DNA of 64,000 nucleotides, taken from positions 4,183 through 68,182 of the forward strand of contig CAYSHH010000003.1 of assembly GCA_964430945.1 (NCBI GenBank), in the 5' to 3' direction. The notes beneath the pieces were generated by a model. It was not told the origin of the DNA. It searched no databases and worked only from the letters and a program-made list of their open reading frames with translations. Position 1 is the stretch's first letter. Every line of letters begins with the position of its first letter. The translations under genes were made by a program, and so were the position numbers. Shown here in pieces: positions 6,981 to 38,389 of this stretch. This DNA is from an uncultured Candidatus Saccharibacteria bacterium (GTDB taxonomy: Bacteria; Patescibacteriota; UBA1384; JAMDBS01; CAYSHH01).

Positions 6981-7364
6981 ATGCAAATTTTAGGAATGAC
7001 CATGTGGGTATTTATCTTAATGGTGATTGTTTCTATCTTGGTTTCTGGTCTTACAATGTGGCTTGGCGCTGGATGGGCCGGTGTCAAAAAAGTTACTTAT
7101 GGTAAGGGTTTGTGGGTAGCAATTGTTGTAGGTATTTTTACTTGGTTGGTGTCAGCAGTTTTTGCTGGTGCAACTGGCGGATGGATGGCAATAATCGGAT
7201 TTATTGTCGGAGTTTTGATCTCACTTTGGATCATAAAAGCTATGTTCAAAATTGAATTTGGTCAAGCGTTCTTGGTCTGGATTATGAATATAGTTGCACA
7301 GGTCTTCGTATACTTTATCATTTCGATTATTCTAGTCGGAACAACGTTTGCTTTTTGGGTATAA
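6981..7364 (+). CDS. Small polytopic membrane protein (about 4 TM)
   Basis: Hydrophobic throughout; strong RBS aggaggg upstream. Confidence 0.55.
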   Translation: MQILGMTMWVFILMVIVSILVSGLTMWLGAGWAGVKKVTYGKGLWVAIVVGIFTWLVSAVFAGATGGWMAIIGFIVGVLISLWIIKAMFKIEFGQAFLVWIMNIVAQVFVYFIISIILVGTTFAFWV

Positions 7365-7495
7365 ACTATTTATTAAAACCAGTATAAGCAATAATTCTAA
7401 TGGTTTATTATCTACCACAAGTCGTGGTAGATATTTTTTGACTATTTATCGAATATTTAAGATAATAAATACAATATCATATAATTAAACTTACT

Positions 7496-8734
7496 ATGAT
7501 CTATAAATTTTCAAATTATGAAAAAGTATTTATAAATATGACTAAAAACTATGTGTCAGTTTACCCTGAGTATAGTTTTCAGTATTATTTTGATGATCAT
7601 AAGGAAAAACTAATCGGTAGCGGAAAAAAGATAATCATTGTGAAAATTAAAAATGCTAAAAAAGTATTTAAGAGAATATTTGAAGAGGGTTCCATTGGAT
7701 TGGGTGAGGTGTATTGTGACGGTCTAGTAAGGATCGCTGACAAAGATTATCGATACTTTCTTCTTATGATTGTTCGCACAGTATACGACAAAAGCCTTCA
7801 ATCAAAACTTTCTTTAAAAGATAAACTTCAGGTAATAAAAGCAAAAGCTGTCAGTAAATTTTTTACTAACAAAGATCAATATAAAGATATAAATAGTCAT
7901 TATAGTTTAAATGACTGGTTTTCTTCGGATGAAGATTCAAATCAATTTTATTTTTATTGGCTAGCATCTCCTTATATTCAATACACTTGCGCAAAATGGG
8001 ATCATGATACGAAAGAGCTGGAGGAGGCACAGATTAACAAATTTAATTTCTATGCCAAGCGTTTAGGTATTTCTAAAAAATCAAAAGGTAAAACTGTGCT
8101 TGATCTCGGATGTGGTTGGGGTGGACTAATGTTTTATCTGGCTGAGAATTTTCAGGTAAATTGCACTGGCATTACACTTTCTACGGCTCAGGCTTCATAC
8201 ATTAAAAAAGAAGCAAAAAAAAGAAAACTTGAACATCTAGTTAGAGTAAGAAATATCAACGTTCACAATATGGACGGTATTTATGATTACATCGTCTCGG
8301 TAGGGCTTTTGGAGCATATCGATGATTATGATGATTTATATAAAAAAACTTCTCTGCATCTCAAGCCAGGTGGACGAGCACTTTTTCACGCAATGTTTCA
8401 CGAAGACGCACACGATGATCCAGATCCATTTTTGTCAAAATATATTTTTCCAGGAGGATGTGTAACAAATATTAATAAAAGTATTAAAATTTTTAAAAAA
8501 TACTTTAAAAAAGTTGATAGGAATGATTTACCGGATTTGTCTTATCCCAAAACTCTTGTTTGTTGGTTCGATAAATTTTGCAAAAATGAGCCAAAGATCA
8601 GGAAACTTTTACGTGACAAAGGAAAATGCAAGGATATCGACTTTGCTATCCGCATGTTCAAACACTACCTAATGTTATCTTATTGTGGACTAACAGTTAA
8701 CGGACACGTATGCAACATACTGGCCGAAAAATAA
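7496..8734 (+). CDS. Cyclopropane-fatty-acyl-phospholipid synthase family methyltransferase (CMAS/CFA-synthase-like)
   Basis: VLDLGCGWGGLMFYLAENF (the DxGCGWG motif of CFA synthases), GITLSTAQASY, a conserved acidic region and the N-terminal CFA-synthase-type region IFEEGSIGLGEVYCDG. Confidence 0.8.
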   Translation: MIYKFSNYEKVFINMTKNYVSVYPEYSFQYYFDDHKEKLIGSGKKIIIVKIKNAKKVFKRIFEEGSIGLGEVYCDGLVRIADKDYRYFLLMIVRTVYDKSLQSKLSLKDKLQVIKAKAVSKFFTNKDQYKDINSHYSLNDWFSSDEDSNQFYFYWLASPYIQYTCAKWDHDTKELEEAQINKFNFYAKRLGISKKSKGKTVLDLGCGWGGLMFYLAENFQVNCTGITLSTAQASYIKKEAKKRKLEHLVRVRNINVHNMDGIYDYIVSVGLLEHIDDYDDLYKKTSLHLKPGGRALFHAMFHEDAHDDPDPFLSKYIFPGGCVTNINKSIKIFKKYFKKVDRNDLPDLSYPKTLVCWFDKFCKNEPKIRKLLRDKGKCKDIDFAIRMFKHYLMLSYCGLTVNGHVCNILAEK

Positions 8735-10095
8735 TTGAAGTTAACTCGGAAGATATTTATAAACAAAAAAGAAATTCTCTTCGTGATGCTTTTTTATTTA
8801 ACATAAAACACAAAACTAAAGTTCGTTTTAGCAAAAAAACCTCCAATTTATTTCGTGATCAGACTGGCATAAAAGCAAAAAAGATTGACGTTCATAATTT
8901 CAATCAAGTCTTATTGATTAATATGCAGAATAAAACTGCAACAGTGGAGGCAATGATAAGATTCGAAGATCTTGTAAAAGTAACTTTGAAATATAATTTG
9001 TTGCCTCCAGTTGCTCCCCAGCTAAAAACTATAACACTTGGTGGTGCAGTATCTGGAGTTGGTATAGAAGCAAGTTCGTTTCAATACGGTCTTGTACATG
9101 AAACAGTTCTGGAGATGGAAGTTATGCTCACTAACGGAAAAATTATCACTTGTACTTCAACGAATCAATATAAAGATCTATTTTTTTCTCTTCCAAATTC
9201 ATATGGGACACTTGGATATATTTTAAAAATTAAAATAGCGCTTGTTGATGCTAAAAAATACGTTAAAATCTCTCATCATAAGTATGCTGACGCAAATCAT
9301 TATTTTGCAGAGCTTGATAAAATCTGCATTGATAAAAAATTTGACTTTGTGGATGGGGTTGTATTTGACGAACGCAATATGTATATTTCAACTGCTCAAT
9401 TTGTTGACAGTGTGCCAAGAGTGAGTGATTACAAATATATGCAGATTTACTACAAATCAATTCTTAAAAAGAAAGAAGATTATCTTACGACGAGCGATTA
9501 TATTTGGCGCTGGGATACTGATTGGTTTTGGTGCTCCAAAATATTTGGTATGCAAAATACATTCTTGCGACTAGTACTTGGTAAATTTATGTTGGGCTCT
9601 AAGTCGTATTGGTCAATCGCACGATTTGAAGAAAAACATAAGATTAGGTCTAGAACGGAAAAAATTATTACTGGAAAAGTTAAACCTACCGAATCAGTTG
9701 TTCAGGACGTGTGTATCCCGATTGAAAATTGCGAGAAATTTTTAGAATTTTTTAATAAACAAATTGACATCAAGCCAATTTGGATTTGCCCTTTTCGAGC
9801 GTATGATAAAAATGAAACTTTTCCATTATTCAAATTAGATACTAAAAAATTGTATGTTGACTTTGGGTTTTGGGATGTAGTACCAACCGATAAATCAAAG
9901 GGATATTATAATAAACTAATAGAAAAAAAAGTTGAGGAATTAGGTGGCAAGAAATCACTTTACTCTGAATCATATTACGAACGTGATGAATTCTGGAAAA
10001 TATTTAATGGTAAAAATTATTTCAAACTAAAACACAAGTACGATCCAGAAAATTATTTTCCAGACCTATATACTCGTTGTGTTAAAAATAAATAA
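8710..10095 (+). CDS. FAD-binding PCMH-type (FAD_binding_4) oxidoreductase, DHCR24/BfaA(TmsA)-like
   Basis: ITLGGAVSGVGIEASSFQYGLVHETVLEMEVMLTNGKIITCT matches the FAD-binding-domain-4 core (GG..G.......G...d.v..levVl.dG.iv). It overlaps the upstream methyltransferase gene by 25 nt. Confidence 0.7.
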   Translation: MQHTGRKIIEVNSEDIYKQKRNSLRDAFLFNIKHKTKVRFSKKTSNLFRDQTGIKAKKIDVHNFNQVLLINMQNKTATVEAMIRFEDLVKVTLKYNLLPPVAPQLKTITLGGAVSGVGIEASSFQYGLVHETVLEMEVMLTNGKIITCTSTNQYKDLFFSLPNSYGTLGYILKIKIALVDAKKYVKISHHKYADANHYFAELDKICIDKKFDFVDGVVFDERNMYISTAQFVDSVPRVSDYKYMQIYYKSILKKKEDYLTTSDYIWRWDTDWFWCSKIFGMQNTFLRLVLGKFMLGSKSYWSIARFEEKHKIRSRTEKIITGKVKPTESVVQDVCIPIENCEKFLEFFNKQIDIKPIWICPFRAYDKNETFPLFKLDTKKLYVDFGFWDVVPTDKSKGYYNKLIEKKVEELGGKKSLYSESYYERDEFWKIFNGKNYFKLKHKYDPENYFPDLYTRCVKNK

Positions 10096-10148
10096 CAAAG
10101 TATAACTATAAATCAAAGCATTATTAAATAAAATTTTAAAGTTACATT

Positions 10149-10535
10149 ATGAAAGAAAAACTCTTGGCTCCATGTGGGATAAATTGTGCAATTTGCAAAG
10201 GATATTTGCGCGAAAAAAATACCTGTCCCGGGTGCAGATTTTTAGATCCCAAAACCAATACATTTAAATCTTGTACAAAATGCATTATTAAAAATTGTCC
10301 AGAACTCAAAAAAACTAAATCTAAGTTTTGCTATGAGTGTGACAAATATCCATGTAAACGAATGAAAGATTTAAATAAAAGATATGTTACTAGGTATGAC
10401 TATAATACTTTTAAAACTTTAGAATCAATTAAAAAAGATGGCACTAAAAAGACATTCGAAAAAATCATGAAAAAATATTCTTGTCCTAAGGGCACAATTT
10501 GCGTGCATGATAAAGAATGTTATTCATTGAATTAA
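10149..10535 (+). CDS. Cys-rich DUF3795-like protein
   Basis: CGINCAICKGY...CPGC...CTKC...C...CYEC...C pattern in 128 aa. Confidence 0.55.
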   Translation: MKEKLLAPCGINCAICKGYLREKNTCPGCRFLDPKTNTFKSCTKCIIKNCPELKKTKSKFCYECDKYPCKRMKDLNKRYVTRYDYNTFKTLESIKKDGTKKTFEKIMKKYSCPKGTICVHDKECYSLN

Positions 10536-10997
10536 ATGTTTCCAAATAGGAATTTTATGAAAAAAAGATATCGAATTATACCAGAAGTTCATATCATAGT
10601 GAAAAAAGATGACAAAGTATTGCTCTGTCGCAGATATAATACTGGTTATGAAGATGGTAAATTTCATTTTCCTGCAGGACATGTTGAAAACAATGAGTCA
10701 CCGCAAGAAACGGCCATAAGAGAAATTAAAGAAGAAGCAAATCTCACAGTTAATAAAAAAGACCTTCAATGTGTGCATGTTATGTATAGAAACTTTGAAA
10801 AAGAGATAGATAGAATAGCAATTTATTTTCAAACAGATCATTTTACAGGAATTCCGAAAATAGTTGAACAAAATAAATGTGATAAAGTAGATTGGTTTCC
10901 TGTAGATAATTTCCCCAAAAACACAATTTTCTATGTTAAGAAGGCATATGATTTTATAAATAAAAAGCAAATGTATAGCGAAGTAAGGGAAATGTGA
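10536..10997 (+). CDS. NUDIX hydrolase
   Basis: Nudix box FPAGHVENNESPQETAIREIKEEANL. Confidence 0.85.
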   Translation: MFPNRNFMKKRYRIIPEVHIIVKKDDKVLLCRRYNTGYEDGKFHFPAGHVENNESPQETAIREIKEEANLTVNKKDLQCVHVMYRNFEKEIDRIAIYFQTDHFTGIPKIVEQNKCDKVDWFPVDNFPKNTIFYVKKAYDFINKKQMYSEVREM

Positions 10998-11359
10998 TGG
11001 GTATTCAAATCGAATTCAATCCAGATTTGGCTCTCAGAAATATTTCTGAGTACACAAAAGGCAATCGAAAAAGGCAGGAGTGTATTCCGGCAAATCTTGA
11101 AGTTGGAAAAGTTTACGATTTTCTTAAAAAAGGTCAACGTATATTTTGGTTTGATGAAAGTGAATTTTGGTCTCACGGACAAATACCACTATATGAAACC
11201 AATGGTCACCAGCAACTTTCCCGACCAATTGCCAGTATTAAAATATTAGAAGTCACTCACTTTCTTGTTGATAAAGAAGTTTATACAAAAGGAAAATACA
11301 AAATTATGCAAATATTTAACGACCAAAAAATTCATTTTGAAGGGATGAAGAAAATATGA
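10994..11359 (+). CDS. Hypothetical 121-aa protein, copy 1 of a duplicated gene
   Basis: About 95% identical in aa and nt to 13680..14042. No family recognised; a PUA/ASCH-like fold would be a guess only. Confidence 0.7.
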   Translation: MMGIQIEFNPDLALRNISEYTKGNRKRQECIPANLEVGKVYDFLKKGQRIFWFDESEFWSHGQIPLYETNGHQQLSRPIASIKILEVTHFLVDKEVYTKGKYKIMQIFNDQKIHFEGMKKI

Positions 11360-12030
11360 GCAAACCTCAAAATACTAAACTTATAATTTTTGACTGGGAT
11401 GATGTTTTTATCATTGGATCAAAACATGCTTACATAGCTTGTTATTTACAGGTGCTAAAAGATCTTGGTGTCAAAATGTCTCAAAAAGATGCGCAAAAAA
11501 TCATCATTGATATGTGGGGAAAATCATATCAGGCTGTTATCGAAAGTCTGCTTTTTAAAAGGCCAGAACTTACGGGTGCGGGAATTAAGCTTTATGAGAA
11601 ATATTGTTTTAGCGATACTTTTTATAATAAACTAAAATTTATCGATGGAGGCAATAAGGCCATTGAAACACTGTCACAAAAATATACACTTGCACTTGCA
11701 ACAGGACAAGATCCAAAAATATTTGAGCATGTTGTTCGTAAATTTGAAATTAAAAACAAATTTGCGAAGATTGTTTTCTCTTGTGAGATTAAAGATGCGA
11801 ATAAACAAAAACCTCATCCATACGCCTTAAAAAAAATTATGAAAGATCTGGGTTTTAAGCCACATGAAACTGTATTTGTCGGTGATGCTGAAAATGATAT
11901 GTCGATGGCCAAAAATGCACACGTTACTCCAATCGCTGTTTTAACTGGACATTTGACCAAACCCCAAGCTCAGAAGTTAGGTATAAAATATATTATTGAT
12001 AATGTAACGCAAATAAATAGTTTATTGTAG
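11356..12030 (+). CDS. HAD-superfamily phosphatase
   Basis: Motif I IIFDWDDV, ATGQD, and a motif IV that includes ENDM. Confidence 0.8.
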   Translation: MSKPQNTKLIIFDWDDVFIIGSKHAYIACYLQVLKDLGVKMSQKDAQKIIIDMWGKSYQAVIESLLFKRPELTGAGIKLYEKYCFSDTFYNKLKFIDGGNKAIETLSQKYTLALATGQDPKIFEHVVRKFEIKNKFAKIVFSCEIKDANKQKPHPYALKKIMKDLGFKPHETVFVGDAENDMSMAKNAHVTPIAVLTGHLTKPQAQKLGIKYIIDNVTQINSLL

Positions 12031-12032
12031 AT

Positions 12033-12563
12033 ATGAAAATATATCTTATTGGTTCTGGTGGTGTTGGTAAATCGACAGTTGGTTTGATACTTTCCGAAAG
12101 ACTAAAATATAAATTTATTGATCTCGATGCAGAATTTGTGAAAAGATATTGCTCACCTGGTAAATATATTGATCAATATGGATATGATGACTATTGCACT
12201 AAAAACTCAGAACTATTCTTTGATATTCAAAAACAAAACGAGGATAATATTGTTGTGGCCCTTTCTTCTGGATTTTTAGTTTATAATAATCTACCTTTGA
12301 TCTTACACAAAAATATTCAAGTCCTAAAAGATGGCATTTCAATTTTACTAATGCCTTCAAGAGACTATAAAACCAGCGAAAAAGTGATTATCTCTCGTCA
12401 GCTAAAAAGAGGTTTTGGACTCAATTCCAAAAGAGAAAAAGAAAAAATCCGTGCAAGATTTGAAAAATATATTCGCTTTGATGACATTCAGATATTTTCC
12501 ACAAAATCACCTCCACGGATAGCAAGTCAAATTATTAAGAAATTAAAAAAATATGAAAAATAA
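12033..12563 (+). CDS. P-loop kinase, shikimate kinase (AroK)-like
   Basis: IYLIGSGGVGKSTVGLILSERLKYKFIDLDAEF parallels the AroK N-terminus (Walker A then xFxDxD). Confidence 0.55.
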   Translation: MKIYLIGSGGVGKSTVGLILSERLKYKFIDLDAEFVKRYCSPGKYIDQYGYDDYCTKNSELFFDIQKQNEDNIVVALSSGFLVYNNLPLILHKNIQVLKDGISILLMPSRDYKTSEKVIISRQLKRGFGLNSKREKEKIRARFEKYIRFDDIQIFSTKSPPRIASQIIKKLKKYEK

Positions 12564-13149
12564 TATTGCCCAAATTTTTGATTTTTTGCATCAAATACAA
12601 AAACTGAAAAAAACTAGGAGATTCAAAGACAGTCCAAAAATGCCTACCGAATCAGTTCCAGATCACACATGGCGACTAGTACTTATGGTTATCTTATTTA
12701 TTGATGAACTCAACCTTGAGATTGATGAGCTGAAAGCAATAAAAATTGCAATTGTTCATGACATTACCGAAAGCATAACAGATGATATTGATTTTTCACT
12801 CGTACATCAGGGAAAAGTTACCAAAGAAGAAAAACACAAAGAAGAGGTGGAAGCTATCAAAAAGATTCGCTCTATGCTGCCCAAAAAGATTGGCAAAGAA
12901 GTTTATGGTTTATGGCTCGAATATGAAACTGCTGAAACTAACGAAGCAAGATTTATAAAAGCACTAGACAAGATGGAGACACTCACTACTATTTTGGAAG
13001 CAGGCCATAAGTGTTATAGTAATCCTAGAGCAACTACACTTTATGCAACGAAACATATTGACAATTACCCAGAACTTAAGCCAGCATATACTGAGCTTAA
13101 AAAACGTCTAACAAAAGAAATGGCAAAAATGGGATATATATGGAAATAA
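12553..13149 (+). CDS. HD-domain phosphohydrolase (YfbR-like 5'-deoxynucleotidase family)
   Basis: The H...HD metal motifs are present (one as IAIVHDITES), and the length is similar to YfbR. Confidence 0.65.
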   Translation: MKNNIAQIFDFLHQIQKLKKTRRFKDSPKMPTESVPDHTWRLVLMVILFIDELNLEIDELKAIKIAIVHDITESITDDIDFSLVHQGKVTKEEKHKEEVEAIKKIRSMLPKKIGKEVYGLWLEYETAETNEARFIKALDKMETLTTILEAGHKCYSNPRATTLYATKHIDNYPELKPAYTELKKRLTKEMAKMGYIWK

Positions 13150-13162
13150 TTATGAAAAAACA

Positions 13163-13213
13163 AATTCAGCTGGTGGAATGATTTGTGTACATGACAAAAA
13201 GTGTTATAAGTAA
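13163..13213 (+). pseudogene. Remnant of the 3' end of a DUF3795-like gene (paralogue of 10149..10535)
   Basis: The frame encodes ..SAGGMICVHDKKCYK*, against CPKGTICVHDKECYSLN* at the end of 10149..10535. About 22 of 27 nt are identical over the core. Confidence 0.45.
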
Positions 13214-13230
13214 GTTATCGAAAGGAAAAA

Positions 13231-13656
13231 ATGAACATAAATTTATGGCAGACAATTTTGGCTGGGGTAGTAGCATCAATCGCATGGTTTGTAATTGGTG
13301 GTGGATTGTATATGAATCCATTGATTGCAAAGATTTATAAAAACGCTGAAAGTTCCCCTGGTTTAAAAAAATGGTCAAATACTCCAAAATACATTGGTTT
13401 CCAATTTTTGGGAATGTTAATTCAAGCTTTACTTTGGGCTTTTGTTTTTGCATATTTAAAATCAGTTTTACCGGAAGCAAAATTATCAGCAGGTTTAGTT
13501 TTTGGTTTAATTCTAGTTGCAATAAAGATCATTCCTCGAGCTTATGATATGTGGATTCAAACAACTTATCCAAATAAGTTATTACTAATAGAATTTATTA
13601 ATGGTACAATTGGAAGTTTTGTAATGGCACTAATCTTTGCATACATAATTTTGTAG
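13231..13656 (+). CDS. Small polytopic membrane protein
   Basis: 141 aa with 4 predicted TM segments; RBS aaaggaaaaa. Confidence 0.55.
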   Translation: MNINLWQTILAGVVASIAWFVIGGGLYMNPLIAKIYKNAESSPGLKKWSNTPKYIGFQFLGMLIQALLWAFVFAYLKSVLPEAKLSAGLVFGLILVAIKIIPRAYDMWIQTTYPNKLLLIEFINGTIGSFVMALIFAYIIL

Positions 13657-13675
13657 AAGTAATATCAACGAGGAA

Positions 13676-14044
13676 TTTTATGGGTATTCAAATAGAATTC
13701 AATCCAGATTTGGCTCTCAGAAATATTTCTGAGTACAAAAAAGGCAATCGAAAAAGGCAGGAGTGTATTCCAACAAATCTTGAAGTTGGTAAAATATACA
13801 ATTTTCTTAAAAAAGGCCAACGTATATTTTGGTTTGATGAAAGTGAGTTTTGGTCTCACGGACAAATACCACTCTATGAAACCAATGGTCACCAGCAACT
13901 TTCCCGACCGATTGCTAGTATTAAAATATTAGAAGTCGCTCACTTTCTAGTTGATAAAGAAGTTTATACAAAAGGAAAATACAAAATTATGCAAATATTT
14001 AACGACCAAAAAATTCATTTTGAAGGGATGAAAAAGATATGAAC
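13676..14044 (+). repeat. Segmental direct duplication of 10990..11361 (about 370 bp, about 95% nt identity)
   Basis: Direct nucleotide comparison of the two copies, including the ATGA junction with the next gene. Confidence 0.85.
13680..14042 (+). CDS. Hypothetical 120-aa protein, copy 2 of the duplicated gene
   Basis: MGIQIEFNPDLALRNISEY... is nearly identical to 10994..11359. As with copy 1, it overlaps the downstream gene through the ATGA context. Confidence 0.7.
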   Translation: MGIQIEFNPDLALRNISEYKKGNRKRQECIPTNLEVGKIYNFLKKGQRIFWFDESEFWSHGQIPLYETNGHQQLSRPIASIKILEVAHFLVDKEVYTKGKYKIMQIFNDQKIHFEGMKKI

Positions 14045-14491
14045 TATGTTAAGTTTATTCAAGTCAATAATCCAAGAGAACTTAGTGTACTTAGGAATAA
14101 AAAAGCTAATTGCAAAGATTTAAATTTTTCTTTTAATACTAATTATATTCAAAAATTGTCTAATCATTTAAAAAGTAAAAATGCTATTCAAATTATTGCA
14201 AAAATAAATGATAAGTTTGCTGGTTATATTGCCTCAGCAGAGATATTAGAACAATATCCAAATTATTTAGTAATATTTGAGCTTTTTGTTGATCCTGTAT
14301 CGCAAGGCTGTGGTTTGGGTACAAAATTAGTACAAAAAATAATTAACCAGGCAAAGAATAAAAACATGAAAGGTGTAATTGTTCAGACAGAAAAAGAAAA
14401 CATTCCCGCTCAGAAACTTTATGAAAAGATAGGATTTACTAAAATTGAAAACTCAGATTGGGAAGAAGGAATAACCTACACATATGAATAA
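14039..14491 (+). CDS. GNAT family N-acetyltransferase
   Basis: Acetyl-CoA motif A (QGCGLGTKLVQKII) followed by ...IPAQKLYEKIGF. Confidence 0.8.
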   Translation: MNYVKFIQVNNPRELSVLRNKKANCKDLNFSFNTNYIQKLSNHLKSKNAIQIIAKINDKFAGYIASAEILEQYPNYLVIFELFVDPVSQGCGLGTKLVQKIINQAKNKNMKGVIVQTEKENIPAQKLYEKIGFTKIENSDWEEGITYTYE

Positions 14492-14565
14492 GCTAAAAAA
14501 TATTAAATCTTGCCGACTATATCATTCACGAACATGAAAAAATGTTTAAAGTTAAGAAATAAATT

Positions 14566-15099
14566 ATGAAATTATTAAAAACAATTTATGAAACTGATAT
14601 TGGGTTAAAAAATAAAAAGCTCGATATCAAATACAATACAAGAGAAGCTACTAGGGTAGTGGTCTTCAACGATAAAGATGAAATCGCATTGATCTATCTG
14701 GCAAAAGAAGATTTTTATAAACTTCCAGGCGGTGGAATTGATGATGGAGAAAATGTCATAGATGCTCTTAAAAGAGAAGTTTTAGAAGAGTTAGGTATTA
14801 CTGTAGATCATATCAAAGAGATTGGACAAATATTTTCTTACAGAAACCAGATCCAAACAGTCCAAACTGATTTTTGTTTTACTGCCAAATTTTCAAAACA
14901 AGTTCAAGACCCCAAATACACTGACTTCGAAAAACAATTTGATTTTCAGACTCAATGGGTAAAAATTGATGAAGCTCTTAAACTATTCCAAACCCACAAA
15001 GCCAAAGACTATTTTGGAAAGTTTTTTAATGTTCGAGATCAAACTTTGATAAAAGAAGTAAAAAAGATTTGGAGAGGGAATGAAAAGAAACAATATTAA
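14566..15099 (+). CDS. NUDIX hydrolase
   Basis: Nudix box LPGGGIDDGENVIDALKREVLEELGI. Confidence 0.8.
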   Translation: MKLLKTIYETDIGLKNKKLDIKYNTREATRVVVFNDKDEIALIYLAKEDFYKLPGGGIDDGENVIDALKREVLEELGITVDHIKEIGQIFSYRNQIQTVQTDFCFTAKFSKQVQDPKYTDFEKQFDFQTQWVKIDEALKLFQTHKAKDYFGKFFNVRDQTLIKEVKKIWRGNEKKQY

Positions 15100-16091: not shown

Positions 16092-16190
16092 ATGCCAACT
16101 GAATTTGAGAATAAGACATATAAAGCAGAAGATTTTACACTCAGGGATTTGTCGGGAATATTATTCTTATTTTTCTTAACTTTTAAATAA
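16092..16190 (+). pseudogene. 5' fragment of a pentapeptide-repeat protein gene (paralogue of 17859..18368)
   Basis: It encodes MPTEFENKTYKAEDFTLRDLSGILFLFFLTFK*, against MTTEFENKTFKSEDFTDKDLSGFLYS... at 17859; about 19 of the first 24 residues are identical before it diverges to a stop. Confidence 0.6.
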
Positions 16191-16207
16191 ATTTAATATA
16201 AAATTGT

Positions 16208-16684
16208 ATGAAAAATCAAACTATTAGACAATATCAGAAACAGGATAAAGATGATGTTTGGAAATTACATGTAGATGGACTTAATCAAACAACCGGTTTT
16301 AAATATGACTCTAAGCTTGATGATGATTTTAATAATATTAAAAGTATCTATCTTGATAACAATGGTGAATTTTATATTGCAGAAATTGATGATAAAGTGA
16401 TTGGTATGGGTGCATTGAGAAAAGTTGATAAAACTACAGCTGAGATTAAAAGGATGAGAGTTAATAAAAAATTTCAAGGCCAAGGAATTGGATCTAAGAT
16501 ACTTGAAAAACTTATTAACAGAGCCAAAGAGCTCGGATATCACAAATTAGTTCTTGATACTTCGGTCAAACAAATCCCCGCTCAAAAACTATATGAAAAA
16601 TTTGGATTTAAAAAATATAAGCAAGAAGGCAATACAATATATTATAAATTAGATATAAATAAGGAATTAAATGAACAGAAATAA
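16208..16684 (+). CDS. GNAT family N-acetyltransferase
   Basis: FQGQGIGSKILEKLINRAKELGYHKLVLDTSVKQIPAQKLYEKFGF; paralogous to 14039..14491. Confidence 0.8.
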   Translation: MKNQTIRQYQKQDKDDVWKLHVDGLNQTTGFKYDSKLDDDFNNIKSIYLDNNGEFYIAEIDDKVIGMGALRKVDKTTAEIKRMRVNKKFQGQGIGSKILEKLINRAKELGYHKLVLDTSVKQIPAQKLYEKFGFKKYKQEGNTIYYKLDINKELNEQK

Positions 16685-17837
16685 ATCAGAAAAATATTTG
16701 GGAATATATGATTTTGGAAACGTTGAGATTGTTGATGCAAAGGATCATTATCTAATTTCAAAAGACGGAAAAAGATATCTTGATTTTGTATCTGGCTGGT
16801 GCGTGGGCAACATTGGCTGGAATGTTCCAGAAGTAAATAATGCAATTAAGAATTTCAAAGGCCCAAATTATGTTAAACCGGGATATTTTTATAAACCATG
16901 GCTTGAACTTGCCGAACTTCTTGCAAAAATTACCCCAGGAAAATTAACAAAAAGTTATGCAGCAACCGGTGGGACAGAAGCAATTGAGCTTGCTATGCAA
17001 ATAGCAATGTATACAACTAGAAGAAATGAATTTATATCGATTGAAGGAAGTTATCACGGGCATTCAATTGGAGCGATGAGTATAGGATCATCTGATTATC
17101 GAAAGACGTATAAAAATTTGCTTCCAAATTGTCATAAAATTAATATCCCGCTTGATGAAAAAGCAGCTCAAAAAGTTGTAGAGCTTTTAAAAACAAAGAA
17201 AATTGCAGCATATATTTCTGAGCCGATTATCTGCAATTTGGGTGTTGAAATTCCAGCCAAAGAATATTATCAAATAGTTGAAAAAGCTTGTAAAAAATAT
17301 GGTACTTTATTTATTATGGATGAGGTAGCAACAGGATTTGGCAGAACTGGAAAAATGTTTGCTTTAGAGCATTACAATCTAAAACCAGATGTCATGTGTT
17401 TGGCAAAAGGAATCACTGGTGGTTATGGAGTATTGGGTGCAACAATTGTTACAGACGAAGTTGCTAAAAGACTTGAAGATTTTGATTTTTATTCAACATT
17501 TGGTTGGCATCCGCTAAATGTTTGTGCTGCGATTGCCAACATCAAATATCTGCTAAAACACAAGCTCTGGGAAAGTTCAAATGAAACTGGTGAATATTTT
17601 GAAAAAGAACTCGCTAAGATTTCATTTAAATATCCTGCCAAAATCAGAATCAAAGGGCTAGCAGTTGGTATCAAATTTGAAAAGCAGGGATATTCACAAG
17701 AAATTGTCAAACGAGCTAAAAAACTTGGATGTTTGCTCTACAATTTAGAGAACCAATATATTTTATTGTTCCCAGCATTAAATATATCTAAAAAAGAAAT
17801 TGATAAATGCGTAAAAATAATTAAAAAATCAGTTTAA
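16671..17837 (+). CDS. Class III PLP-dependent aminotransferase
   Basis: ATGGTEAIELAMQIA, DEVATGFGRTGKMFALEHY and the lysine region CLAKGITGG. Confidence 0.8.
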   Translation: MNRNKSEKYLGIYDFGNVEIVDAKDHYLISKDGKRYLDFVSGWCVGNIGWNVPEVNNAIKNFKGPNYVKPGYFYKPWLELAELLAKITPGKLTKSYAATGGTEAIELAMQIAMYTTRRNEFISIEGSYHGHSIGAMSIGSSDYRKTYKNLLPNCHKINIPLDEKAAQKVVELLKTKKIAAYISEPIICNLGVEIPAKEYYQIVEKACKKYGTLFIMDEVATGFGRTGKMFALEHYNLKPDVMCLAKGITGGYGVLGATIVTDEVAKRLEDFDFYSTFGWHPLNVCAAIANIKYLLKHKLWESSNETGEYFEKELAKISFKYPAKIRIKGLAVGIKFEKQGYSQEIVKRAKKLGCLLYNLENQYILLFPALNISKKEIDKCVKIIKKSV

Positions 17838-17858
17838 GTTTAATTGTAAAAAAACAAT

Positions 17859-18368
17859 ATGACCACTGAATTCGAAAATAAAACATTTAAGTCAGAAGAT
17901 TTTACTGACAAGGATTTATCAGGATTTTTGTATTCTGACTGTAAATTTGAAAATTGTAATTTTTCAAATACCAAAATCAACAATACCAAATTCCAAAATG
18001 TTAAATTTGTAAACTGCAAACTTGTCGGACTCAATTTTTCCAACACTCACAAGCTGACTTTAAGTCCAAGTTTTGAAAACTGTCTTATCTCAAATTGTGT
18101 GTTTTCAAATATTGAAATACCTGAAACTAATTTTTCGTCCTCAAAAATCGTTGAATCTGATTTTTATGACTCTGATCTTATTCGATCTGACTTTTCAAAA
18201 GTAGAGTTTAAGGATACTGTTTTTGACAAATGTGATCTTAGAGAGACTGATTTTAGAAATGCTTTTAACTACCGCATTAATCCAAATAAAAACAAACTTA
18301 AAAATGCACGATTCTCAATCCCAGAAGTCTTACACTTACTTGAAAATATTGAGATAATATTAGAATAA
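17859..18368 (+). CDS. Pentapeptide-repeat protein (Qnr/MfpA-like size, 169 aa)
   Basis: Tandem A(D/N)LxX-type pentapeptides (CKFENCNFSNTKINNTKFQNVKFVNCKLVGLNFSN...). Confidence 0.8.
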   Translation: MTTEFENKTFKSEDFTDKDLSGFLYSDCKFENCNFSNTKINNTKFQNVKFVNCKLVGLNFSNTHKLTLSPSFENCLISNCVFSNIEIPETNFSSSKIVESDFYDSDLIRSDFSKVEFKDTVFDKCDLRETDFRNAFNYRINPNKNKLKNARFSIPEVLHLLENIEIILE

Positions 18369-32939: not shown

Positions 32940-33020
32940 ATTATACCTATAGATATGGAGTCAATCAATGAGAGTAAGCTTAACAAACAAAAATAAACCA
33001 CGTTGTGATTTATTTTTGTT

Positions 33021-33095
33021 TGGCAGCCTGTAGGGGAATCGAACCCCTGTTTTCAGCTTGAAAAGCTGACGTCCTAACCATTAGACGAACAGGCC
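33021..33095 (-). tRNA. tRNA-Glu (anticodon TTC)
   Basis: The reverse complement folds as a cloverleaf with anticodon loop ttTTCaa, a TpsiC arm ggttcgattcc and a 3' gCCA. Confidence 0.85.
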
Positions 33096-38259: not shown

Positions 38260-38389
38260 AGATAATTAAAACAGTTGTTAGTTATTAAAAATATTCGCCT
38301 GTAGGCGAATATTTTTAATAAAACTTATCTTGTCAGATCTTTTTATTAATAAATTTACTTTAATGTAACAGTATGCAAAATCAATTCTT

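What the first reader, a model, noticed from the sequence alone, without database searches (positions are those of the whole stretch)
10990..14044. About 370-bp segmental duplication (95% nt identity) of a 120-aa unknown gene, plus a remnant of the DUF3795 gene 3' end
10994..11359 and 13680..14042 encode near-identical proteins, and both copies end in the same ATGA overlap with the next gene. Upstream of copy 2, at 13163..13213, a short frame encodes ..GGMICVHDKKCYK*, mirroring the C-terminus (..GTICVHDKECYSLN*) of the DUF3795 gene that lies upstream of copy 1. This implies duplication of a larger ancestral block [DUF3795 gene - X - 120-aa gene] followed by differential decay. The 2.3 kb between the copies (HAD, kinase, HD, membrane protein) may be a cargo insertion. 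The high identity suggests a recent event or gene conversion.
Basis: seen in the sequence. Interest (0 to 1): 0.6.

Follow-up and report, generated by a model that had tools for sequence, protein, structure and literature searches.

The report
Recent duplicate of small unknown gene
A streamlined candidate-phyla-radiation bacterium carries two intact, 95%-identical copies of a small conserved gene of unknown function plus a decayed fragment of a neighbouring gene, which is an ordinary recent gene duplication in a locus that is repeatedly rearranged.

Summary
X1 (10997-11359) and X2 (13680-14042) are gap-free 363-nt copies with 17 differences (95.3%). Twelve differences are synonymous (dS 0.20, dN/dS 0.09), so both copies are under purifying selection. 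Similarity stops exactly at the ATG and at the TGA, and each stop overlaps the next gene's ATG (ATGA).

The DUF3795 3' remnant (about 13145-13213) is also real (family HMM E=0.0017, unique nt match). It lies on the same dot-plot diagonal as X2 (offsets 2684 and 2683). The 472 nt between remnant and X2 (a DUF1761 gene) are unrelated to the Nudix gene in copy 1.

A relative (L089) has CMAS-FADox-DUF3795-Nudix-X, so X1 sits at the ancestral position and X2 is the derived copy. In the closest relatives, DUF3795 and the Nudix gene at 14566 are adjacent, so the 4 kb between them is a variable hotspot. A second gene-end remnant lies at 16092-16167.

X belongs to a compact family with no Pfam domain, found in Patescibacteria and DPANN archaea. 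It has no confident structural match and only a weak DUF2584/YtmB link. Its neighbours are often nucleotide-salvage enzymes.

Verdict: an ordinary lineage-specific duplication in a plastic locus. Interest is low to moderate.

The parts
10149..10535 (+). Intact DUF3795 gene (128 aa). Its 3' part, about 10458-10523, is the counterpart of the remnant.
   Evidence: Pfam PF12675, 25.8 bits against a cut-off of 22.6. Homologues of 60-84% identity exist. Homology to relatives and to the remnant both end at the Cys-Tyr codons at 10518-10523.
10536..10997 (+). Nudix hydrolase gene A (153 aa). It fills the interval between DUF3795 and X1.
   Evidence: Pfam NUDIX E=1.3e-18. A 153-aa orthologue (55% identity) occupies the same position in L089.
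10997..11359 (+). X1, the 120-aa conserved protein of unknown function, at the ancestral position.
   Evidence: It is syntenic with X of L089 (75% aa identity; window 7001-11356 is collinear with L089).
11356..12030 (+). HAD-family phosphatase gene. Its ATG lies inside the ATGA at the end of X1.
   Evidence: Pfam HAD_2 E=1.8e-25; ORF table.
12033..12563 (+). Shikimate-kinase-like P-loop kinase gene.
   Evidence: Pfam SKI E=7.9e-15. There is a weak PADLOC match to viperin-associated kinases, E=2.6e-6.
12553..13149 (+). HD_3 / YfbR-like phosphohydrolase gene. Its stop codon lies at the start of the remnant.
   Evidence: Pfam HD_3 E=3.8e-34; alignment of 13143-13159 with 10458-10474.
13145..13213 (+). 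Pseudogene fragment of a DUF3795 3' end (..GGMICVHDKKCYK*), with frame-breaking indels upstream of the GG codons.
13231..13656 (+). DUF1761 membrane-protein gene (141 aa), unrelated to the Nudix gene that holds the equivalent interval in copy 1.
   Evidence: Pfam DUF1761, 44.3 bits against a cut-off of 31. Background-level nt identity to 10524-10996. No tblastn signal. Seven relatives elsewhere have no X or DUF3795 nearby.
13680..14042 (+). X2, the derived copy of X. It carries T87A at a site that is Thr in 94 of 99 other aligned family members and Ala in none.
14039..14491 (+). GNAT acetyltransferase gene. Its ATG lies inside the ATGA at the end of X2.
   Evidence: Pfam Acetyltransf_1 E=3.7e-17.
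14566..15099 (+). Nudix hydrolase gene B. Its orthologue lies directly after DUF3795 in the closest relatives, so it is the right-hand anchor of the variable region.
   Evidence: 86% aa identity to L081 and 82% to L085, where it follows DUF3795 after one gene or after 17 nt.

Best explanation
Shown. This is a real, lineage-specific duplication of a small protein-coding gene, here called X. X codes for 120 aa and belongs to an unnamed family found in Patescibacteria and DPANN archaea. The two copies sit in a chromosomal, same-strand array of about 20 small genes running from about 7.5 to 18.8 kb, in a Moranbacteria-like CPR genome.

X1 occupies the ancestral slot (CMAS-FADox-DUF3795-Nudix-X, as in relative L089). 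X2 is the added copy and arose after the split from that relative. Both copies are intact and under purifying selection.

Inferred. The copied tract runs exactly from the ATG to the TGA. Because X ends in ...ATATGA, the tract itself supplies the start codon of whatever gene follows. Each copy is therefore translationally coupled to a different downstream enzyme: HAD-kinase-HD after X1, and GNAT-Nudix after X2. In such a tightly packed genome, only an end-precise copy would leave the neighbouring genes working.

The DUF3795 3' fragment at 13145-13213 begins at the stop codon of the HD gene. I read it as the scar of a block-level event in which a segment of about 2.68 kb was inserted or duplicated through a short homologous anchor in the DUF3795 3' end. 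This could have been a tandem duplication or a single-crossover integration of circularised DNA. A second scar of the same design lies at 16092-16167. The locus between DUF3795 and Nudix-14566 is thus a recombination hotspot that gains and swaps small genes.

Function of X (inferred, low confidence). X is a small beta-rich protein that acts with nucleoside or nucleotide salvage and house-cleaning enzymes, for example as a ligand-binding or accessory subunit.
For: Duplication and its sharp borders.

Selection: 12 synonymous and 5 non-synonymous differences, dS=0.20, dN=0.017, omega=0.087.

Each copy is the other's closest relative by far. They are 96% identical to each other, 75% to L089 and at most 71% to anything in the 5.8 billion protein clusters. 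Both are in the public record of one 86.6-kb contig.

X1 is ancestral: window 7001-11356 is collinear with L089 (CMAS 80%, FADox 70%, DUF3795 60%, Nudix 55%, X 75%).

Hotspot: in L085, DUF3795 is followed after 17 nt by the orthologue of Nudix-14566. In L081 a single gene lies between them.

Remnant. It starts at the HD stop codon, where a tandem or Campbell-type junction is expected.

Second scar: 16092-16167 is 77% identical to the first 25 codons of the gene at 17859, with two genes in between.

ATGA coupling is a trait of the family: 15 of 72 homologous loci have a -4 overlap with the next gene.

The array is chromosomal: a tmRNA and 9 tRNAs are present. No plus-strand terminator-like site was found between 10.2 kb and the end of the scanned region at 19.0 kb.

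Context of X elsewhere: the immediate same-strand neighbours in 75 loci include HD (7), Nudix (6), PNP (4) and PRTase (4). Cytidylyltransferase, Maf and CYTH also occur. A nucleoside-deoxyribosyltransferase-like family appears about 15 times within three genes of X; 12 of the 15 members aligned hit PF05014 below threshold.
Against: No reads were available, so the assembly could not be checked directly.

No relative closer than about 75% aa identity is available to polarise the events.

The remnant and X2 are collinear to within 1 nt with DUF3795 and X1. This points to one block event, yet the middle gene differs and the remnant is more diverged (69%) than dS=0.20 predicts. A simple 'precise copy of X alone' does not explain the collinearity.

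End-precise duplication has no known dedicated mechanism and relies on selection as a filter.

The functional inference for X rests on variable gene neighbourhoods only.
Confidence: 0.6

Rival explanations
1. One ancestral block [DUF3795 3' end - middle gene - X] was duplicated as a unit. Afterwards the second copy lost or replaced its middle gene and the DUF3795 fragment decayed.
For: The two similarity segments are collinear: offsets 2684 and 2683, and spacing of 476, 475 and 476 nt in copy 1, copy 2 and L089. The remnant's 27-nt core identity (81%) fits neutral decay at dS=0.20.
Against: The 472-nt middle is non-homologous (identity 0.31/0.275 against a background of 0.289+-0.023; no tblastn signal). 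The model therefore needs a replacement of Nudix by DUF1761 that keeps the length to within 1 nt. Over all 65 nt the remnant is only 69% identical to the resident gene and has indels, which makes it older than the X pair. Identity upstream of X2 ends exactly at the ATG.
Confidence: 0.25
2. X1 and X2 are older paralogues kept nearly identical by gene conversion (concerted evolution). The 95% identity then dates the last conversion, not the duplication.
For: Identity is confined to the coding region and the flanks are unrelated. The collinear remnant is more diverged than X, as expected if only X was homogenised.
Against: A conversion tract must lie inside the homologous region. Yet the first 14 nt are identical, and the last 93 nt differ at only two synonymous sites. 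By comparison, X1 and L089 differ at 5 of the first 15 nt. There is no mosaic pattern: the longest identical run of 83 nt is about what 17 random differences would give (my estimate). The 12:5 synonymous to non-synonymous pattern looks like simple divergence.
Confidence: 0.2
3. One copy is a xenologue. A DNA block from a closely related lineage, for example [DUF3795 3' end - NudixA - X1 - HAD - kinase - HD], was taken up, circularised and integrated by a single crossover in the DUF3795 3' end. This left the displaced resident 3' end as the remnant. X1 and X2 would then be orthologues from two lineages rather than in-genome duplicates.
For: The remnant begins exactly at the end of the HD gene, which is the expected circle junction, and the bracketed segment is 2684 nt. 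A second bracketed block lies at 16092-17936. The identities to relatives are mosaic: DUF3795 is 79-84% identical to L081/L085 but 60% to L089, while CMAS is 77% and 80%.
Against: The model needs a donor and a recipient that both carried X at the same distance from DUF3795 with different middle genes. No such donor or recipient arrangement was found. Seven DUF1761 loci lack X and DUF3795, and 80 X loci lack DUF3795. The gene order seen in L089 is the one found around X1, not around X2.
Confidence: 0.15
4. The second copy is a metagenome assembly artefact, for example a strain chimera or repeat mis-join.
For: The source is a metagenome-assembled contig, and no reads could be examined. The longest identical run between the copies is 83 nt, enough to tangle small-k assembly graphs.
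Against: Both copies are complete and are separated by 2.3 kb of unique sequence. Each is fused in frame-precise ATGA overlaps to a different intact gene. The 17 differences show a purifying-selection pattern. Two independent mis-joins at codon-exact positions would be required.
Confidence: 0.03

Closest known systems
Recent tandem-region paralogues in bacteria, with or without concerted evolution (textbook example from my own knowledge: tufA/tufB of enterobacteria)
   Same: There are two near-identical coding sequences in direct orientation with unrelated flanks. Both are kept by purifying selection.
   Different: X has no known function. The copies are only 2.7 kb apart in one gene array. 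The identity reaches the very first and last codons. No conversion mosaic is seen. CPR genomes are small and poor in paralogues, so a young duplicate is less expected there.
Pfam DUF2584 (PF10763) / Bacillus subtilis YtmB (PDB 2nwa), a family of unknown function
   Same: YtmB is the top PDB sequence hit of two X-family profiles. The N-terminus (MGxxVEFNT) and the F-x-x-K-x-G-x-R-v-Y-P motif align in register. Fourteen of 61 X-family members give sub-threshold DUF2584 hits, the best at 1.7e-5.
   Different: X1 and X2 do not hit the Pfam model at all. The PDB E-values are 0.097 and 0.49. Foldseek did not list 2nwa among the top 50 matches. X is about 30-40 residues longer. DUF2584 itself has no assigned function.
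   Same: The best Foldseek hits of a confident model (pLDDT 90.7) are cereblon Lon-N domains, a Lon N-domain, and SRA and AspBHI domains.
   Different: None of the matches is significant (E>=0.012, TM 0.29-0.37, rmsd 7-9 A). There is no sequence-profile link.
Gene-end duplications left by single-crossover (Campbell-type) integration or by tandem duplication junctions
   Same: A multi-gene block is bracketed by an intact gene end and a truncated copy of that end. This occurs twice in 8 kb: DUF3795 at 10458-10523 / 13145-13207, and the pentapeptide gene at 16092-16167 / 17859-17936.
   Different: The bracketing repeats are only 69-77% identical and 65-78 nt long. No integrase, plasmid or phage genes are seen nearby. 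The donor is unknown.

Membership tests
Segmental (block) duplication | Two copies in direct orientation with significant nucleotide identity | tested here: met
   363 nt, 95.3% identity, no gaps, blastn E=9e-166. It is the only such repeat in the window.
Segmental (block) duplication | Homology continues through neighbouring sequence irrespective of gene borders | tested here: not met
   Identity drops to background at the ATG and the TGA. The 472 nt between remnant and X2 are unrelated to the 473 nt in copy 1.
Segmental (block) duplication | Separate similarity segments are collinear (same diagonal) | tested here: met
   Offsets are 2684 nt (remnant) and 2683 nt (X). Spacing is 476 and 475 nt.
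Gene conversion between paralogues | Converted tract less diverged than adjacent homologous sequence, or mosaic tracts, or grouping by genome in a phylogeny | tested here: inconclusive
   The remnant is 69% identical against 95% for X, but the remnant may have another origin. No mosaic is seen within X. Only one genome is available, so the phylogenetic test is not possible.
DUF3795 (PF12675), for the fragment at 13145-13213 | Significant match to the family profile, including the conserved C-terminal CVH...C motif | tested here: met
   The family HMM gives E=0.0017 over all 4085 window peptides. C118, V119 and H120 are invariant in 24 homologues and all three residues are present in the fragment (ICVH). 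There is a nucleotide match to seven homologues' 3' ends.
DUF3795 (PF12675), for the fragment at 13145-13213 | Complete open reading frame with the N-terminal Cys clusters | tested here: not met
   Only about the last 22 codons are present. Indels break the frame upstream of the GG codons, and the 5' 320 nt are absent. It is a pseudogene fragment.
DUF2584 / YtmB, for protein X | Pfam PF10763 score above the gathering cut-off (25 bits) | tested here: not met
   X1 and X2 give no hit even at E<=10. Distant family members score about 14 bits, and the best E-value among the 61 members is 1.7e-5.
DUF2584 / YtmB, for protein X | Significant profile or structural similarity to the solved member 2nwa | tested here: inconclusive
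PUA-like fold (ASCH/EVE/SRA/Lon-N), for protein X | Significant structural superposition on a member (for example TM>0.5 or Foldseek E<1e-3) | tested here: not met
   The best result is E=0.012-0.045 with TM 0.34-0.37, using models of pLDDT 82 and 91.
Anti-phage defence or phage protein, for X and its neighbours | Match to PADLOC or PHROG models | tested here: not met
   X, DUF1761 and the 258-aa ORF give no hits. There are only weak hits for the kinase (pVip-kinase, 2.6e-6) and for DUF3795 (LmuC, 0.0016).

The most novel reading that the evidence does not exclude
X could be an ORF-sized mobile gene. It would copy itself, or be copied, exactly from start codon to stop codon into gene boundaries and donate its terminal ATGA as the start of the downstream gene. 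That would explain four things: its codon-exact duplication here, its very variable neighbourhoods, its patchy spread, and its unusually high identity (57-70%) across Patescibacteria and DPANN archaea. A related possibility is that the slot between DUF3795 and X is subject to cassette-like gene exchange that keeps spacing constant (476/475/476 nt).
Probability: 0.06. Interest if true: 0.75.

Novelty: new member of a known kind. Interest (0 to 1): 0.3.

Why it matters
The duplication itself matters little. It is one more example of paralogue birth, though it is notable for occurring in a reduced CPR genome and for its codon-exact borders.

Three side results are more useful.

- The locus between DUF3795 and a Nudix gene is a documented hotspot. 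It holds 25 nt in L085, one gene in L081 and nine genes here, and it carries two gene-end scars. It is therefore a concrete place to study how ultra-small genomes gain genes.
- X is a strongly conserved, compact protein family shared by CPR bacteria and DPANN archaea. It has no Pfam domain, no significant structural match among solved (PDB) or predicted viral (BFVD) structures, and recurrent nucleotide-salvage neighbours. That makes it a reasonable target for structural and biochemical work on how these symbionts scavenge nucleotides.
- The length-preserving but non-homologous interval between remnant and X2 remains unexplained.

Tried and rejected
- Extension of X homology into the flanks. 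Ungapped identity and shuffled local-alignment tests were not significant.
- Hidden homology between the Nudix interval and the DUF1761 interval, including other reading frames. Identity was at background, and tblastn and blastn found only chance matches.
- A third X copy or X fragments in the window. None were found.
- Other genomes with two X copies close together. None of 80 loci has one within +-8 kb. The one MAG with two loci (L034/L046) shows a 3.4-kb collinear 89% match, more like two strains or a large duplication.
- A pre-existing DUF3795-DUF1761-X arrangement elsewhere. It was not found in 7 DUF1761 loci or 80 X loci.
- Assigning the remnant to an 'L089-type' DUF3795. It matches 30/36 in the core, but over 65 nt the resident gene is the best match (45/65). 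The assignment was dropped.
- Pfam, NCBIfam, PADLOC and PHROG searches for X. There were no hits.
- Reaching DUF2584 proteins with the last homologue search. It listed only close family members.
- A literature search for DUF2584/YtmB found nothing relevant.
- Rfam found only tRNAs and the tmRNA in the window.
- Looking up the source contig by exact protein failed for X1.

Full report
**Checking the observation**

The ORF table and repeat search show two 120-aa ORFs on the plus strand. A pairwise alignment and a base-by-base count give these results:
- The copies are 10997-11359 and 13680-14042, 363 nt each, with no gaps.
- They differ at 17 positions (95.3% identity) and at 5 amino acids (T20K, A32T, V39I, D41N, T87A).
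- A self-blastn of the whole window finds no other repeat of comparable size.
More than 1000 homologues begin MGI..., which is ATG 10997.

Identity collapses to 33-40% immediately outside the ATG and the TGA. Shuffling tests on the flanks are not significant. Both copies end ...ATATGA, and the embedded ATG starts the next gene: HAD at 11356 and GNAT at 14039.

**Selection and age**

- Nei-Gojobori counting gives 12 synonymous and 5 non-synonymous differences, with dS=0.20, dN=0.017 and omega=0.087. Both copies have therefore been maintained as coding genes since they diverged.
- X2 alone carries Ala at position 87, next to the invariant His88. The other 99 aligned family members have Thr in 94 cases and never Ala.
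- The copies are 96% identical to each other. They are 75% identical to the nearest syntenic relative and at most 71% to anything else in the protein collection. Both belong to the public record of one 86.6-kb contig.

**The remnant**

The frame 13172-13213 reads GGMICVHDKKCYK*. Several tests support it as a real DUF3795 fragment:
- A tblastn of the DUF3795 protein against the window gives it as the best non-self hit (E=0.006).
- An HMM of 24 homologues, searched against all 4085 stop-to-stop peptides, gives E=0.0017.
- The 27-nt core matches the resident gene 22/27, and none of 48,701 other offsets reaches this.
- The motif GG-T-ICVH-xx-KCY is the conserved C-terminus of this DUF3795 subfamily, followed by a variable tail.
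- Nucleotide alignment with seven homologues extends the fragment to about 13145-13209 and shows frame-breaking indels.

It is therefore a pseudogene fragment. Over 65 nt it is 69% identical to the resident gene, which is its best match. In the 36-nt core it is closer to L089 (30/36), so its exact source cannot be assigned.

The remnant is offset by 2684 nt from its counterpart and X2 by 2683 nt. The distance from the Cys-Tyr codons to the X start codon is 476 nt in copy 1, 475 nt in copy 2 and 476 nt in relative L089.

Yet the interval holds an orthologous 153-aa Nudix gene in copy 1 and L089, and an unrelated DUF1761 membrane-protein gene in copy 2 (Pfam). Nucleotide identity across the interval is at background level and there is no protein-level signal. 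I could not explain this length-preserving non-homology. It is recorded as unexplained.

**Relatives**

- L089 (a 6.1-kb contig) carries CMAS-FADox-DUF3795-Nudix(153 aa)-X. It is collinear with window 7001-11356 and ends at the last codon of X. X1 is therefore at the ancestral position, and the duplication is younger than the split from L089.
- In L085 (DUF3795 84% identical), the gene 17 nt after DUF3795 is the orthologue (82%) of the Nudix gene at 14566.
- In L081-L084 (79%), one gene separates them.

Relative to those genomes, window 10526-14558 is a 4-kb gain containing NudixA, X1, HAD, kinase, HD, the remnant, DUF1761, X2 and GNAT. Homology with relatives stops at the same Cys-Tyr codons where the remnant homology stops. 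The DUF3795 C-terminal tails differ in every homologue. This point is therefore a recurrent breakpoint.

**A second scar**

Window 16092-16167 is intergenic. It is 77% identical to the first 25 codons of the intact pentapeptide-repeat-like gene at 17859-18368. A GNAT gene and an aminotransferase-like ORF lie in between. This is the same design as DUF3795 ... block ... remnant. Two such scars within 8 kb argue for repeated block insertion or duplication through short homologous anchors.

**What X is**

Sequence searches:
- X has no Pfam, NCBIfam, PADLOC or PHROG match.
- More than 1000 close homologues of 57-71% identity exist.
- Only 168 representatives at 50% identity were found among 1.84 billion proteins, so the family is compact.
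- It occurs in at least 296 species-representative genomes. Most of the 80 best are Patescibacteria. About 17 are DPANN archaea, some with RFC-like neighbours.

Structure:
- AlphaFold models reach pLDDT 82 and 91 and are beta-rich.
- Foldseek against PDB and BFVD gives nothing significant. The best hits are cereblon/Lon-N and SRA-type domains, with E>=0.012 and TM about 0.35.
- A weak but repeated link points to DUF2584/YtmB. PDB 2nwa is the top hit at E=0.097 and 0.49, and 14 of 61 family members give sub-threshold Pfam hits.

Neighbourhoods of X:
- They are variable but rich in nucleotide-metabolism genes: HD, Nudix, purine/uridine phosphorylase, phosphoribosyltransferase, Maf, CYTH and cytidylyltransferase.
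- A nucleoside-deoxyribosyltransferase-like family is also frequent.
- In the window, X1 sits in Nudix-X1-HAD-kinase-HD, and X2 sits in DUF1761-X2-GNAT-Nudix.
- In 15 of 72 loci the next gene overlaps X by ATGA.

My functional guess is a ligand-binding or accessory protein of nucleotide salvage or house-cleaning. This is an inference with low confidence.

**Weighing the mechanisms**

- Assembly artefact: unlikely, because it would need two codon-exact mis-joins and the differences show a selection signature.
- Gene conversion between old paralogues: it would explain CDS-limited identity and the older-looking remnant. However, conversion tracts cannot reach the very ends of the homologous region. 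Here the first 14 nt are identical and there is no mosaic.
- Import of one copy on a block from a related lineage: it fits the junction at the HD stop codon and the mosaic identities, but it lacks any observed donor arrangement.

I therefore commit to this reading. The duplication is real and young. X1 is ancestral and X2 is derived. It sits in a hotspot built by repeated block events, and the exact order of those events is unresolved.

**Context**

The window is chromosomal and bacterial, with a tmRNA and nine tRNAs, and has 27-39% GC. Genes from 7.5 to 18.8 kb are co-directional. No plus-strand terminator-like site was found downstream of 10.2 kb within the scanned region, which ends at 19.0 kb.

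**Verdict**

- This is a new member of a known kind, namely a lineage-specific gene duplication with a pseudogene scar.
- Interest is about 0.3. It comes mainly from the uncharacterised CPR/DPANN family and the unexplained equal spacing, not from the duplication itself.

Noticed in passing
window 16092-16167 and 17859-18368: There is a second gene-end scar. An intergenic 76-nt fragment (MPTEFENKTYKAEDFTLRDLSG..) is 77% identical to the 5' end of the intact pentapeptide-repeat-like gene, 1767 nt downstream. GNAT2 (16208-16684) and an aminotransferase-like ORF (16671-17837) lie in between.
   Followed up: partly
window 10521-10997, 13205-13680; L089 5255-5731: The spacing from the DUF3795 Cys-Tyr codons to the X start codon is 476, 475 and 476 nt. 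In the second case the interval holds an unrelated gene (DUF1761 instead of Nudix). This is a length-preserving, non-homologous replacement with no explanation.
   Followed up: yes
L001-L080 (X at about 8001 in most loci): The X family is shared by Patescibacteria and DPANN archaea (Woese-, Pace-, Aenigmatarchaeota, Nanoarchaeia) at 57-68% identity to the window protein. This is unusually high for a cross-domain family and suggests inter-domain transfer. It is patchy: at least 296 of 185,579 species representatives carry it.
   Followed up: partly
L003:8796-9230, L010:8397-8828, L012:5918-6352 and about 12 more loci: The commonest neighbour of X is a family of about 140 aa with no Pfam hit above threshold. 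Its members resemble nucleoside 2-deoxyribosyltransferase / N-glycosidase proteins: 12 of the 15 aligned members hit PF05014 below threshold (best 5.6e-5), and there are weak PDB hits to CMP N-glycosidase and NDTs.
   Followed up: partly
L008, L034, L046, L058: A conserved block of PNP_UDP_1 phosphorylase, X and phosphoribosyltransferase occurs in several archaeal and bacterial loci. This is the clearest operon-like hint that X works in nucleoside salvage. L034 and L046 come from one MAG and share 3.4 kb at 89% identity.
   Followed up: partly
window 10526-14558 compared with L085 482-506 and L081 10376-10952: DUF3795 and the Nudix-14566 orthologue are adjacent (L085) or separated by a single 23S_rRNA_IVP-family gene (L081) in the closest relatives. 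The window has nine genes there. The DUF3795 C-terminal tails after the Cys-Tyr codons differ in every homologue, which points to a recurrent breakpoint.
   Followed up: yes
window 13938-13940 (codon 87 of X2): X2 has Ala where 94 of 99 other aligned family members have Thr and none has Ala. The site is directly before the invariant His88. This may reflect relaxed or altered function of the derived copy.
   Followed up: no
window 38282-38321 and 32984-33022: There are two near-perfect palindromes of 39-40 nt (95% and 87% self-complementary). Both are next to tRNA genes in the 33-38.5 kb tRNA cluster, and they are probably terminators or processing hairpins.
   Followed up: no
window 12033-12563: The shikimate-kinase-like gene between HAD and HD gives weak PADLOC matches to viperin-associated kinases (pVip-kinase E=2.6e-6, VakA 3.4e-4). 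This fits a nucleotide kinase rather than a shikimate kinase.
   Followed up: no
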